From assembly GCA_000165345.1 (NCBI GenBank), contig CM000431.1, positions 512,001 through 576,000 of the forward strand: a stretch of DNA of 64,000 bases. Direction: 5' to 3'. The position numbers were made by a program. Positions 27,001 through 30,000 of the stretch are shown here, piece after piece; within the stretch, counting starts at the first letter, position 1, and each line of letters starts with the position of its first letter.

Positions 27001-30000
27001 TTGAATTAACTCATAGAATTATTGAGATATTAACTTCAAACAATTTAAGTGGCTGTCTTAATAACTCGTTTGATTATAAAAAACTAGATATCATTAGAAA
27101 GTTATTATATATTGATCAAGAATCAAATTGGGGGGTTTCTACATATTTTTCTTTCTTACTTCCTCTTTTCCATCATTACTTTAAGAATGAAAAAAATAAA
27201 GAAATACCATTAGTCAAATACATTATCTCAAATTCATTAAAGCTTTCAAACAAAATTGCCAATTCAGTAATGCAGTTATTCGATTCTTTATTAAAAATAA
27301 TTCACAGAGTTGTGAAATTGGACTCTTTAAATGAGTTAGCAAACTCAACTCTAGCAGAAAACAGTAATAGAGACAAGCTTAAGGTTGATGTTTACTCCAA
27401 AGATTTCTTAAAATCTATCGGAGACTCGTTTTTTCCAGAAATTTGGAATTTCTACTGCAATTATTTCAAATGTTGCTTGGAAAAATGGAGCTTAACTAAT
27501 ATTCATGCATCTAGTGAATATAAGCGGGATCAACAAAGTTGCAAGTTTCTGCAAAGAAGGGTTGAACTTGGAATCTTTGTGTATTTTACCGGTAATCTTT
27601 GGCTTGAAATGTTAATTGCTTTATTTTCACTGGATATAATTTGTAATAAAAGATCATCCACGCACAACATAGGATGCTGGTCAGATTCTGAGCTCTTAGA
27701 GTCACTTAACTTTCATCCATATATGGAGCTTATTAAAGAAATTCTTGAAATTAAAATGGCAACTTTTTACAATTTTAGAAATCCTGTAGATGGAAAAATG
27801 ATTCAAAAACATTTTCCAGAACTCCAAAAAGGACCAAAATATAAGTTTATTATAAATCTCAGTCTTTTGTGGTTTTTGGCTTTTTCACAAGAACCAGAAA
27901 CCCCAAACACTACAGAAGTTGCCAAGTGCATGGAATTTATAACTGAAAATTTCAAAGAAGTCATATTAGACTCTAAGCCTATTTAATTAACATAAACAAT
28001 TAAATTTTGTTGCGAGTTCAGGAGATATTTCCGACACCTGTTTGAAAATTTCGTTTGCTTCGTCCATCTTTCCTCTATAAGTCAAATCTTTTCCCTTTAA
28101 CCATAGAATATACGCCCTTTGATCTGCCTCACTAGTCAGTATAGGGTTCACTCTCCTATAAAGTATGTCTGTTCTTAAAATATACTTAGTATATCCAGCA
28201 CACAAAGGCTCGCCTTCGTGCATATCTGCAATAAAGAAAGTTACTATTCTACCTGCTCTTGGCTGTACTCTAGTAATAACATTATTTGGGTTTGTTCTCT
28301 CTCGGCCAGATTCGTCAATAAATCGTTTCTGTGTCTTTTGAGATTCATCTACAAATGAAGTAGCACCGCCTCCTTCTTCTGGAATTGTGTTTAAGTATAC
28401 TAAAACTGTCCAAAGAGTGCGAGTATTTGTATCTATACAGACTGAACAATCTGTATGGGGCCCAAAGTGGCCTCCATCACGGTATCTCCCAAAAAACATT
28501 TTTTCATATATTCCAATAGATTTCCATTTCCCAATATTATCTTCCTCGCTATAGCTATCATTTTCATTTATTTCGAATTCATGGTAATTAAAAATGTTCT
28601 TGATTCTTTCCCAAATGAATTTAGATAGTAAATACATATTACCCTCAATTGTATCCACATTTCTATAGCTTTTCTTAGAGGAATGTCCCGGATTCCAAAA
28701 AGAAAATTCTCCACTTTTCTCAAGAGATGCTATCATTTCCTTACATTCATCTTCTGAGAATACATTGTCCCAAATTTCTGCATATGGAAACCCTGGTACC
28801 TTTTGTCTAGTTATATTTTTTGTATCGACGCTCGGATCTTTCTCATGCACGAAGCTAGCTATTACCTTTTCTTCGTCAACCATATCCTTTTCCTTCACAA
28901 TTGACAAATATTTTGAGTAATTTCCCATATTTTTGGTTTATAGCTTTTATTGTTTGTCTTATTAATTTATTTATATCTTAGAAAAGTTGAAGAAAAAACG
29001 CTCATTCATGCTATTTTGATCTTTTTAGTGTGTAATTAAGAAAAACAGTAATTAGACGGCGGCGCAATTTCTAATTTGGGATGGAAAGCCACAAAGGGAC
29101 TTAGTTTTGCTCTTCTAAATTATTTTACTGGAATATCACCAAAGATTTCTTTTCATTTTATCATTAATCGATTCGAAACCTAGCTCGGAATTGGACTACC
29201 TCAATAATTTTCTCACTTAAATCTGCTGGTTAAAGCTTTTTTAAAACCTCGATATAAAATTCAACTCGATTTATTTCAAGATATTGCTGACTTCCAGTGT
29301 TTCTGCACTGAGAAGACATATTTTAGACCAAAATTCACAACATTGAGTCAAACGGTGCTTTAGGGCACGTAAGTGGATCTAACTCTAATTCTAATAGGTA
29401 CTTTTGCCATGCCTGTCAAAATAATGTGACGATTTGTGAGAATCAGAGCGACAATACAGATCTTACGTGCCCACAATGTGGGAATAATGGCTTTGTTGAA
29501 TTAATATCTTTTGGTTCTCAGCAAAGTCAGGGGGTTTCTCTCTTAGGTATTACGGAACCTATAAATCCCCAGGAGGCTTCAACAAATCTACCAAGATCTT
29601 CTTGGATAGATATTTCATCTTTTCCTCAATCTGGCACTGAAATTGGGCCAGAAAATATACTTTCTAGGCTAATTTCAGAAGTTTCTAATTCTCTTAGGAA
29701 CTCAAGTAACAACCCAACGTCATTTGATCCATTGTTACCGAATTATAATACAAGAATTCATCAGGAGCAGCATAATTCTCATCATGCTCATGCTGTGTCG
29801 TTTTCCAGTGAATTGCCGACGGGGAATCCTGGAGCCACTACATTTATGGTAGGGCTTAGTGGTGAATTTAGGGAATTTCCCCTTGGAGACGTTCTTACAG
29901 GAAGCACGCTTTCGAACTTAGTTGAAAGCATGGAGAATGCTCTTGCCGTAGCCCTTAGTACTGAAGATCCTAATAATCGATTTGGAAGCCCTCCAGCTTC

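What the first reader, a model, noticed from the sequence alone, without database searches (positions are those of the whole stretch)
29324..29430. RNF126-like E3 ligase: conserved BCA2 zinc finger precedes any in-frame ATG; intron-like GTAAGT..TAATAG element just upstream
The frame encoding RYFCHACQNNV...CPQCGNNGFVEL (clearly homologous to the RNF126/BCA2 N-terminal zinc finger) is open from 29327. It contains no ATG until far downstream, and the track start is a GTG. A 29-nt element with perfect splice signals (GTAAGTGGATCTAACTCTAATTCTAATAG, 29369..29397) sits inside this open frame. Using it would need a phase-2 upstream exon, and the only upstream ATG (29081) reads into a stop. So the 5' end is unresolved. 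Possibilities are non-AUG initiation, an undetected distant 5' exon, or a sequence error.
Basis: seen in the sequence. Interest (0 to 1): 0.5.

Follow-up and report, generated by a model that had tools for sequence, protein, structure and literature searches.

The report
E3 ligase gene lacking AUG start
A conserved Cryptosporidium ubiquitin-ligase gene (cgd3_2060) has no usable ATG before its essential N-terminal zinc finger in ten species, most likely because the ancestral ATG became ATT and translation now starts at that AUU; the "intron-like" 29-nt element is ordinary coding sequence.

Summary
The window is Cryptosporidium parvum and the gene is cgd3_2060, a CIP8/RNF126-type RING-H2 E3 ligase. 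The frame is open from 29327, the Zn ribbon (29393-29506) precedes the first in-frame ATG (29846), and GTAAGT..TAATAG sits at 29369-29397. That 29-nt element is not an intron. It has the wrong phase, a TAG lies in the feeding frame, it evolves as codons (VSGSNSNSN), and such patterns are expected about 11 times per window by chance. Sequence error is excluded, because two independent assemblies are identical and ten species share the feature. Public annotations give at least five incompatible 5' models, each built on an ATG that is not conserved across the clade. The 170 codons upstream of ATG29846 are under purifying selection (dN/dS about 0.2-0.25), so the 320-aa models are truncations. Outgroups read (Q/E)-ATG-(H/Q)-N where the parvum-to-felis clade reads AAA-ATT-(H/R)-N. 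AAA ATT is nucleotide-invariant in all ten species. C. canis and C. felis have no ATG plus GT/GC-AG intron solution in the intergenic region. Best explanation (about 0.5) is initiation at AUU 29333 in an AAA context. The main rival is a spliced upstream AUG exon (29081-29103, intron 29104-29373). No transcript or ribosome data could be consulted.

The parts
29333..29335 (+). ATT, the proposed near-cognate (AUU) start codon and positional homologue of the ATG of outgroup species
   Evidence: Ingroup species read AAA ATT CAC/CAT/CGT/CGC AAC. Outgroups read CAA ATG CAT AAT (Logan SRR31860995) and GAA ATG CAA AAC (C. bovis). ATT is identical in all 10 ingroup species, whereas 0 of 9 invariant-Ile columns elsewhere in the gene keep one codon.
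29330..29332 (+). AAA at -3..-1, the preferred start context in this genome
   Evidence: Genes in this window show A enrichment at -3 to -1 (10, 14 and 9 of 19). AAA is kept in the 49% GC species L014, although AAG outnumbers AAA 19:1 among the other Lys codons of this gene and the adjacent oxygenase gene.
29324..29326 (+). In-frame TAG that closes the frame two codons upstream of AAA ATT
   Evidence: It is conserved in 8 of 10 ingroup species and is TGG in C. felis and L014. It is therefore neither a universal 3' splice site nor a universal stop.
29333..30808 (+). Proposed CDS of cgd3_2060 (491 codons plus TAG)
   Evidence: The frame is open for 487-492 codons from ATT in all 10 ingroup species. 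dN/dS is 0.2-0.25 for the 170 codons before ATG29846.
29393..29506 (+). N-terminal zinc ribbon (Zn_ribbon_19, RNF126/BCA2/CIP8 type; CHAC...CPQC)
   Evidence: Pfam match of 41 bits against a 30.8 cut-off. PDB hit to RNF126 2N9O, E 0.015.
30077..30217 (+). RING-H2 domain
   Evidence: Pfam zf-RING_2, E 7.7e-12, 45.7 bits. The C3H2C3 pattern can be read in the translation.
29369..29397 (+).
   Evidence: The length is not a multiple of 3, TAG 29361-63 lies in the feeding frame, substitutions are synonymous or conservative, and C. felis has an in-frame 12-nt insertion.
29846..29848 (+). First in-frame ATG, the start of the 320-aa public models (QOY42555.1, WRK31440.1); judged an internal Met
   Evidence: The context is TTT at -3..-1. 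Six out-of-frame ATGs precede it. The residue is V in bovis/ryanae and I in andersoni.
29081..29104 (+). Short upstream ORF MESHKGT*; exon 1 (29081-29103) of the rival 485-aa model, with donor tta|GTTTTG at 29104
   Evidence: It is not conserved: TAA at codon 4 in chipmunk genotype I and C. ubiquitum, no GT donor in SRR18693150, no ATG in C. canis or L014.
29104..29373 (+). Rival 270-nt intron of the 485-aa model (acceptor CACGTAAG|T)
   Evidence: It is the only single GT-AG solution in C. parvum. It would place 14 conserved codons (KIHNIESNGALGHV) in an intron.
29008..29019 (+). Mini-ORF ATG CTA TTT TGA; its homologue is used as the start in the chipmunk and ubiquitum models
29291..29315 (+). 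Conserved inverted repeat or hairpin CTTCCAGTG-(6 nt)-CACTGAGAAG in the leader, 18 nt upstream of ATT
   Evidence: It is present in all ingroup species except C. felis. The loop varies and the arms are near-invariant. There is no compensatory change, so RNA structure is not shown.
29052..29065 (+). TTAGACGGCGGCGC, an invariant GC-rich motif in the shared divergent promoter region
   Evidence: Outgroups have GATGGCGGTGC at the equivalent place.

Best explanation
cgd3_2060 encodes a 491-residue CIP8/RNF126-type RING-H2 E3 ligase. Its only conserved start signal is the near-cognate codon AUU at 29333-29335, in the genome's preferred AAA context. In the common ancestor of the C. felis to C. parvum clade, the original ATG mutated to ATT (G to T). 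Since then, scanning 43S complexes are inferred to initiate with Met-tRNAi at AUU, at reduced efficiency. The product would be M-H-N-I-E-S-N-G-A-L-G-H-V-S-G-S-N-S-N-S-N-R-Y-F-C-H-A-C..., with the zinc ribbon intact. The weak start would keep the ligase at low abundance or make its synthesis sensitive to start-codon stringency. Shown: the absence of any in-frame ATG, the translated status of the upstream codons, the ATG-to-ATT correspondence, and the nucleotide invariance of AAA ATT. Inferred: that ribosomes actually start there, and any regulatory consequence.
For: 1. Translation of the upstream region. The Zn ribbon and the 170 codons before ATG29846 are under purifying selection: dN/dS is 0.25 against chipmunk genotype I, 0.24 against C. 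ubiquitum and 0.21 against C. canis.
2. No ATG in any ingroup species. In all 10 ingroup species the frame between the upstream stop and the ribbon holds no ATG.
3. Correspondence with the outgroup start. Outgroups start at ATG-(CAT/CAA)-AA(T/C), 18-19 codons before the ribbon. Ingroup species have ATT-(CAC/CAT/CGT/CGC)-AAC 21 codons before it (25 in C. felis). The conserved GC-rich promoter motif lies 268 nt upstream of ATT in the window, against 274 and 253 nt upstream of ATG in the two outgroups.
4. Single origin. The ATT species are monophyletic on a gene tree and the ATG species fall outside, which implies one event.
5. Nucleotide-level constraint. AAA ATT is identical in all 10 species. 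Only 15% (24 of 156) of amino-acid-invariant degenerate codons are, and 0 of 9 Ile codons. The AAA persists in L014, where AAG outnumbers AAA 19:1 among the other Lys codons of this gene and the neighbouring oxygenase gene. The codon before AAA varies at all three positions, coding T, A or V.
6. No other conserved candidate. AAA is the favoured -3..-1 context in this window's genes. ATT 29333 is the only conserved near-cognate in the open stretch.
7. No spliced alternative in two species. C. canis and C. felis have no ATG plus GT-AG or GC-AG single-intron solution in the intergenic region.
8. Annotation disagreement. Public models disagree (320, 484, 485, 490, 501 and 515 aa, plus 'partial'). 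The full-length ones each use a different, non-homologous ATG, donor and acceptor.
Against: There are no transcript, ribosome-footprint or N-terminal peptide data, so initiation at AUU is inferred only. AUU is among the weaker near-cognates in other eukaryotes (own knowledge). Ribosome profiling in the apicomplexan Toxoplasma found very little initiation at any non-AUG codon (PMC12338608). C. parvum, C. tyzzeri, C. hominis and C. meleagridis do have one canonical GT-AG solution from ATG 29081. No significant downstream or overall RNA structure that might boost a weak start was found (z = -0.68). The coding signal in the 20 codons between ATT and the ribbon is only moderate: substitutions by codon position are 4, 9 and 12. 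The ATG/ATT homology rests on a short alignment across a low-complexity segment with indels.
Confidence: 0.5

Rival explanations
1. Translation starts at an ordinary AUG in a short upstream exon that is spliced into the frame just before the zinc ribbon. In C. parvum this would be exon 1 at 29081-29103 (MESHKGT + TA), a 270-nt intron at 29104-29373, and exon 2 from 29374, giving the 485-aa protein MESHKGTYGSNSNSNRYFCHAC... Other species would use their own lineage-specific ATG exons.
For: It is the only canonical single-intron solution in C. parvum and C. tyzzeri. It matches the deposited models KAL5369555.1 and WKS76949.1. Equivalent or alternative ATG-exon solutions exist in C. hominis, C. 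meleagridis, chipmunk genotype I, C. ubiquitum, SRR18693150 and L014. Apicomplexan ribosomes (Toxoplasma) appear strict for AUG.
Against: The donor is tta|GTTTTG and the acceptor is GGGCACGTAAG| with no T-rich tract. A validated intron in this window is 47 nt, GTAAGT...TTTTAG. The genome mean is about 86 nt, calculated from 1370 introns covering 1.29% of the genome (PMC9465071) and an assumed genome size of about 9.1 Mb. Exon 1 is not conserved: TAA at codon 4 in chipmunk genotype I and C. ubiquitum, no GT in SRR18693150, and no ATG in C. canis or L014. C. canis and C. felis have no solution at all. The intron would contain 14 conserved in-frame codons. The later C. parvum annotations (QOY42555.1, WRK31440.1) give the contiguous 320-aa ORF, not a spliced model. 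PMC12179316 describes RNA-seq/Iso-Seq support and manual curation for CpBGF. That these two accessions belong to IOWA-ATCC and CpBGF is my inference.
Confidence: 0.27
2. Translation starts by some other non-canonical route. Examples are a different near-cognate codon in the open stretch (ATT 29342 or AGG 29396), reinitiation after the upstream mini-ORFs, or a structured leader element (the 29291-29315 inverted repeat) that places the ribosome.
For: The leader block 29286-29326 is as conserved as the coding sequence, and it contains an inverted repeat with variable loop and conserved arms. The first 60 codons show lower synonymous divergence than the rest of the gene (dS 0.17-0.28 against 0.6-0.9 versus C. 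ubiquitum and SRR18693150). This hints at nucleotide-level constraint near the start.
Against: ATT 29342 is ACT in C. ubiquitum, C. canis and C. felis. AGG is a very poor initiator. C. felis lacks the inverted repeat. There are no compensatory changes and no significant folding energy. Reinitiation would still need a start codon.
Confidence: 0.12
3. The real protein is the 320-aa product from ATG 29846, as in the QOY42555.1 and WRK31440.1 models. The upstream zinc-ribbon frame would then be untranslated leader or a decaying relic.
For: Two later C. parvum annotations use this model. PMC12179316 reports that every predicted protein in the IOWA-ATCC and CpBGF annotations starts with Met.
Against: dN/dS is 0.2-0.25 over the 170 upstream codons. 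The frame stays open and all four ribbon cysteines are kept in 10 species despite saturated dS. ATG 29846 has TTT at -3..-1 and is preceded by six out-of-frame ATGs. The Met is V or I in C. bovis, C. ryanae and C. andersoni.
Confidence: 0.04
4. Sequencing or assembly error has removed a genuine ATG.
For: None was found.
Against: The 28929-29430 segment is exact in two independent Logan assemblies. The downstream ORF is found in 49 collection blocks. The same ATT is present in 10 species.
Confidence: 0.01

Closest known systems
RNF126 / RNF115 (BCA2) in animals and CIP8 / RHC1A / RING1-like E3 ligases in plants
   Same: It has the same two-domain layout, an N-terminal Zn_ribbon_19 (CxxC...CxxC) followed by a C-terminal RING-H2, and both Pfam domains score above their gathering thresholds. 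Plant CIP8/RING1-like proteins are the best non-Cryptosporidium hits. Ponts et al. 2008 list cgd3_2060 as 'similar to CIP8'. The only PDB hit is the RNF126 N-terminal zinc finger.
   Different: The linker and the C-terminal low-complexity tail are long, giving 491 aa against roughly 300-330 aa. No biochemical data exist. Whether the ribbon binds a BAG6-like partner, as in RNF126, is unknown. Unlike the plant, animal and outgroup Cryptosporidium homologues recovered here, it has no ATG before the ribbon.
Eukaryotic cellular genes whose main ORF starts at a near-cognate codon, such as TEAD1/TEF-1 (AUU) and EIF4G2/DAP5 (GUG) (from my own knowledge, not tested here)
   Same: There is a conserved coding sequence with no in-frame AUG, a single near-cognate codon in a strong context, and conservation of that codon across species.
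   Different: In those cases initiation is shown experimentally, whereas here it is inferred from comparative genomics only. No such case turned up for Cryptosporidium in two full-text searches. Toxoplasma ribosome profiling argues that near-cognate initiation is rare in a related lineage.
Short spliceosomal introns of Cryptosporidium (example validated here: 32537-32583, minus strand, 47 nt, GTAAGT...TTTTAG)
   Same: The 29-nt element shares the GTAAGT start and the TAG end.
   Different: It is 29 nt, not T-rich and in the wrong phase. A stop lies in the only frame that could feed it, and it is conserved as codons. It is therefore not a member of this class.

Membership tests
RNF126/BCA2/CIP8-type RING-H2 E3 ligases | N-terminal zinc ribbon (Pfam PF14369) with two CxxC pairs | tested here: met
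   41.0 bits against a 30.8 cut-off, with full-length profile match 1-35/35. CHAC and CPQC can be read.
RNF126/BCA2/CIP8-type RING-H2 E3 ligases | C-terminal RING-H2 (C3H2C3) domain | tested here: met
   zf-RING_2 at 45.7 bits against 27.3. CVVC...CHHIFHANC...CPVC can be read.
RNF126/BCA2/CIP8-type RING-H2 E3 ligases | Sequence similarity of the ribbon to the solved RNF126 N-terminal zinc finger | tested here: inconclusive
   2N9O is the only hit, but E is 0.015 for a single-sequence search.
RNF126/BCA2/CIP8-type RING-H2 E3 ligases | E3 ubiquitin-ligase activity and partner binding through the ribbon | not testable with these tools
   This needs biochemistry.
Non-AUG (near-cognate) initiated main ORFs | Conserved, translated coding sequence upstream of the first in-frame AUG, with no in-frame AUG after the upstream stop | tested here: met
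   dN/dS is 0.2-0.25 over 170 codons, and no ATG is present in 10 species.
Non-AUG (near-cognate) initiated main ORFs | A near-cognate codon in favourable context, conserved at the nucleotide level beyond what its amino acid requires | tested here: met
   AAA ATT is invariant in 10 species, against 15% of comparable codons and 0 of 9 Ile codons.
Non-AUG (near-cognate) initiated main ORFs | No spliced isoform that supplies an AUG | tested here: inconclusive
   no solution in C. canis or C. felis, one weak and non-conserved solution in C. parvum. No RNA data were available.
Non-AUG (near-cognate) initiated main ORFs | Direct evidence of initiation (initiation-site ribosome profiling, N-terminal peptide, mutagenesis) | not testable with these tools
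   No such data are accessible. Literature searches found none for this gene or genus.
Spliceosomal intron (the 29-nt element 29369-29397) | GT...AG boundaries | tested here: met
   The pattern is expected about 11 times per window by chance.
Spliceosomal intron (the 29-nt element 29369-29397) | Removal yields a continuous ORF with an upstream coding exon | tested here: not met
   Sequence reading: the length is 29 nt (phase shift), and the feeding frame has TAG at 29361-29363 two codons before the junction.
Spliceosomal intron (the 29-nt element 29369-29397) | Evolves as non-coding sequence, with indels of any length and no codon pattern | tested here: not met
   there are no indels in 8 species, and the two that differ change by whole codons (12 nt in C. 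felis). Synonymous changes such as TCT/TCG/TCA and AAT/AAC occur, and GTAAGT is absent in C. felis.

The most novel reading that the evidence does not exclude
An obligate AUU start codon replaced the ancestral AUG of a conserved E3 ligase once, in the ancestor of the C. felis to C. parvum clade, and has been maintained ever since. This would be the first natural non-AUG main-ORF start recognised in Cryptosporidium. It would arise in a phylum where the one species profiled (Toxoplasma) seems almost strictly AUG-dependent. The conserved leader element at 29286-29326 may help start-site selection.
Probability: 0.45. Interest if true: 0.6.

Novelty: new member of a known kind. Interest (0 to 1): 0.45.

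Why it matters
Current Cryptosporidium annotations give this one gene at least five incompatible 5' ends across species. The C. parvum models QOY42555.1 and WRK31440.1 cut off its zinc ribbon because every predicted protein in those annotations starts with Met. If the AUU start is real, three things follow. First, it corrects the protein sequence of a conserved E3 ligase in a major diarrhoeal pathogen. Second, it shows that Cryptosporidium ribosomes can use a near-cognate start, which bears on annotation rules; 636 Iowa II models originally lacked a Met (PMC12179316). Third, it gives a clean natural test case for start-codon stringency in Apicomplexa. If a spliced AUG exon is used instead, the gene is simply mis-annotated and the finding is routine.

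Tried and rejected
- **Sequence error.** Rejected. Independent assemblies are identical and ten species share the feature.
- **The 29-nt intron.** Rejected on phase, the TAG in the feeding frame, its codon-like evolution and its chance frequency.
- **TTTTAG|ACC at 29326 as a conserved 3' splice site.** Rejected as universal. C. felis and L014 have TGG there, and C. parvum has no phase-0 ATG exon to feed it.
- **The MLF.SFSC exon of the chipmunk and ubiquitum models.** In C. parvum the homologous ATG 29008 reads ATG CTA TTT TGA.
- **The C. hominis 490-aa acceptor (CAG|T).** C. parvum has CGG at that site.
- **Extended search for ATG exons up to 1.9 kb upstream.** It returned only implausible 1.4-1.8 kb introns borrowing the neighbouring CCA-enzyme ORF. 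This is uninformative.
- **Stop-codon readthrough from ATG 29081.** That ATG is in the same frame, but seven in-frame stops intervene.
- **A known RNA family in the leader.** Rfam gave no match at E <= 1.
- **A stable start-enhancing RNA structure.** Folding 29280-29420 gave z = -0.68. The small GUGCU...GGCAC hairpin is broken without compensation in SRR18693150.
- **Transcript-like Logan contigs.** All 49 blocks carrying the ORF are genomic-size contigs of 5 kb or more. No Logan member of the protein cluster has a spliced N-terminus.
- **Literature.** No paper on non-AUG or near-cognate initiation in Cryptosporidium was found, and only one paper mentions cgd3_2060.
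Full report
**Identity of the locus**

The window is AT-rich (about 33% GC). The open frame 29327-30805 translates to a sequence identical to C. parvum Iowa II EAK89272.1/XP_626775.1, 'ring domain protein, partial' (493 aa, no Met). It is 97% identical to the C. hominis orthologue. Gene numbering in the C. meleagridis orthologue, and the one paper that mentions it, point to cgd3_2060, listed as 'similar to CIP8 in A. 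thaliana'. I inferred this ID and did not check it against CryptoDB.

Pfam finds a complete N-terminal Zn_ribbon_19 (nt 29393-29506) and a RING-H2 (nt 30077-30217), both above their gathering thresholds. The only PDB sequence hit of the N-terminus is the RNF126 N-terminal zinc finger, at a marginal E of 0.015.

**Checking the observation**

- The Zn-finger frame is closed by TAG 29324-26. It contains no ATG before 29846.
- The ORF caller's GTG (29426) lies inside the ribbon.
- The 29-nt GTAAGT...TAATAG is at 29369-29397.
- The 398-nt intergenic region runs to the divergent 2OG-Fe(II) oxygenase gene (27987-28928, minus strand). It holds two plus-strand ATGs, 29008 (MLF*) and 29081 (MESHKGT*), not one.
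- The sequence is not an error. Two independent Logan assemblies contain the exact 28929-29430 segment.

**The 29-nt element is not an intron**

- Its length shifts the frame, and the frame that would feed it has TAG at 29361-63.
- It encodes V-S-G-S-N-S-N-S-N.
- Across eight species it has no indels and shows synonymous or conservative changes.
- C. felis lacks GTAAGT and carries a 12-nt in-frame insertion.
- GTAAGT-N15-45-TAG is expected 11.1 +/- 3.7 times per window by chance, against 18 observed, some of which are real introns.
- A validated intron here (32537-32583, minus strand) is 47 nt, T-rich and ends TTTTAG.

**Public annotations disagree**

The 90% cluster and its orthologues show many different 5' ends:

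| Model | Species / accession | N-terminus |
|---|---|---|
| 493/492 aa 'partial' | C. parvum Iowa II, C. hominis | no Met |
| 320 aa | C. parvum QOY42555.1 and WRK31440.1, C. tyzzeri | from ATG 29846 |
| 485 aa | C. parvum KAL5369555.1 | MESHKGTY\|GSNS |
| 490 and 484 aa | C. hominis | |
| 484 aa | C. meleagridis | MNR\|HVSG |
| 501 and 515 aa | chipmunk genotype I, C. ubiquitum | MLF.SFSC... |
| truncated | C. canis, C. felis | |

PMC12179316 reports that all IOWA-ATCC and CpBGF predicted proteins start with Met, whereas 636 Iowa II models did not.

**Comparative analysis**

I fetched the locus from C. hominis, C. tyzzeri, C. meleagridis, chipmunk genotype I, C. ubiquitum, C. canis and C. 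felis. I also fetched two unnamed ingroup species from Logan assemblies (SRR18693150, and SRR31860986, which is 49% GC). The outgroups are C. bovis and Logan SRR31860995.

1. *No ATG in the ingroup.* In all ten ingroup species the frame before the ribbon reads x-K-I-(H/R)-N-... with no ATG.
2. *The upstream codons are translated.* The 170 codons before ATG29846 have dN/dS of 0.21-0.25 against chipmunk genotype I, C. ubiquitum and C. canis. The frame stays open for 487-492 codons from ATT. The 320-aa model is therefore a truncation.
3. *ATG corresponds to ATT.* Outgroups read CAA ATG CAT AAT and GAA ATG CAA AAC, where the ingroup reads AAA ATT CA(C/T)/CG(T/C) AAC. A conserved GC-rich motif lies 268 nt upstream of ATT in the window, against 274 and 253 nt upstream of ATG in the outgroups.
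4. *Single origin.* The ATT species form one clade on a gene tree, with the ATG species (including C. ryanae and C. andersoni, by their proteins) outside it. A single G-to-T change at the ancestral start is the parsimonious history.
5. *Constraint on the nucleotides themselves.* AAA ATT is identical in all ten species. Only 24 of 156 amino-acid-invariant degenerate codons are, and 0 of 9 Ile codons.
   - The GC-rich species keeps AAA, although the other Lys codons of this gene and the adjacent oxygenase gene are AAG 19:1.
   - That species has changed the next Ile to ATC.
   - The codon before AAA varies at all three positions.
6. *Context.* A-rich -3..-1 is the preferred start context in this window's genes, while ATG29846 has TTT.

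**Spliced alternatives**

I enumerated every ATG in the intergenic region, every GT (and GC) donor before a stop, and every AG acceptor giving an open frame into the ribbon.

- C. parvum and C. tyzzeri have exactly one GT-AG solution: ATG29081, donor tta|GTTTTG at 29104, acceptor CACGTAAG| at 29373, a 270-nt intron.
- C. canis and C. felis have none.
- The other species have solutions that use non-homologous ATGs, donors and acceptors.
- The MESHKGT exon has TAA at codon 4 in chipmunk genotype I and C. ubiquitum. It lacks the GT donor in SRR18693150 and the ATG in C. canis and L014.
- The apparently conserved TTTTAG at 29321-26 is TTGG in C. felis and L014.
- No ATG-based model is therefore conserved, and two species have none.

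**Interpretation**

The only start signal shared by all ten species is AUU in an AAA context, at the position of the ancestral AUG. I therefore favour near-cognate initiation at 29333, at about 0.5.

Several points count against it. There are no RNA, ribosome or peptide data. AUU is a weak initiator elsewhere (own knowledge). Toxoplasma profiling shows little non-AUG initiation. C. parvum has one canonical, if weak-looking, spliced alternative.

I found no significant RNA structure that would assist a weak start and no Rfam family. A conserved leader block contains an inverted repeat at 29291-29315. It is present in all ingroup species except C. felis but shows no compensatory changes, so its nature (RNA hairpin or DNA site) is open.

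**Novelty and verdict**

Non-AUG main-ORF starts are a known kind in eukaryotes, so this would be a new member. It would be notable for its clade-wide conservation and for occurring in Cryptosporidium, where my searches found no report. The intron idea is rejected, sequence error is rejected, and non-AUG initiation is the leading but unproven explanation. Interest is 0.45.

Noticed in passing
window 29052-29065 (also L001-L006, L009, L011-L014; variants at L008 2217-2227 and L007 738-748): TTAGACGGCGGCGC is invariant in all ten ingroup species, in an otherwise poorly conserved, AT-rich divergent intergenic region. C. bovis and SRR31860995 carry GATGGCGGTGC at the equivalent spot. It is probably a shared promoter element (E2F-like GGCGG/GCGC core, from memory) for the oxygenase/RING gene pair. 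It occurs only once in the 64-kb window.
   Followed up: partly
window 29286-29326, inverted repeat 29291-29299 / 29306-29315: A leader block is as conserved as coding sequence and contains CTTCCAGTG-(6-nt variable loop)-CACTGAGAAG. It is present in nine of ten ingroup species (absent in C. felis) and not found in the outgroups. There are no compensatory substitutions, so it could be an RNA hairpin or a palindromic DNA site.
   Followed up: partly
window 29336-29506 against the rest of the gene: Synonymous divergence is lower in the first ~60 codons than downstream (dS 0.17-0.28 against 0.6-0.9 for C. parvum versus C. ubiquitum or SRR18693150). This hints at nucleotide-level constraint near the 5' end.
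   Followed up: no
L014 (Logan SRR31860986 contig, 39 kb): This syntenic Cryptosporidium locus has 49% GC, against about 33% in the window. It comes from an unnamed species that groups with C. canis on the gene tree, and its Lys codon usage is strongly shifted (AAG over AAA).
   Followed up: no
protein P0107 (Logan contig, 2512 nt); corresponds to window ~29619-29678: A C. parvum-like variant lacks 20 residues (SFPQSGTEIGPENILSRLIS) between two ATTTCA direct repeats. The gap has no GT-AG ends, so it looks like a deletion polymorphism or an assembly slip, not an intron.
   Followed up: partly
L011 ~1344-1584 (C. tyzzeri orthologue of window 27987-28928): The 2OG-Fe(II) oxygenase N-terminus matches in two overlapping tblastn pieces in different frames. 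It is annotated as 264 aa instead of 313, which suggests a frameshift or assembly error in that record.
   Followed up: no
window 32537-32583 (minus strand): This is a genuine 47-nt intron (GTAAGT...TTTTAG). Removing it fuses the two ORFs 32580-33023 and 32272-32595 of the F-actin capping protein alpha gene into one open frame. It served as a local reference for real intron features.
   Followed up: yes
window 8001-10000: GC content rises locally to 0.476, against 0.29-0.40 elsewhere in the window. The region overlaps the 943-aa ORF at 7808-10639 and was not examined.
   Followed up: no
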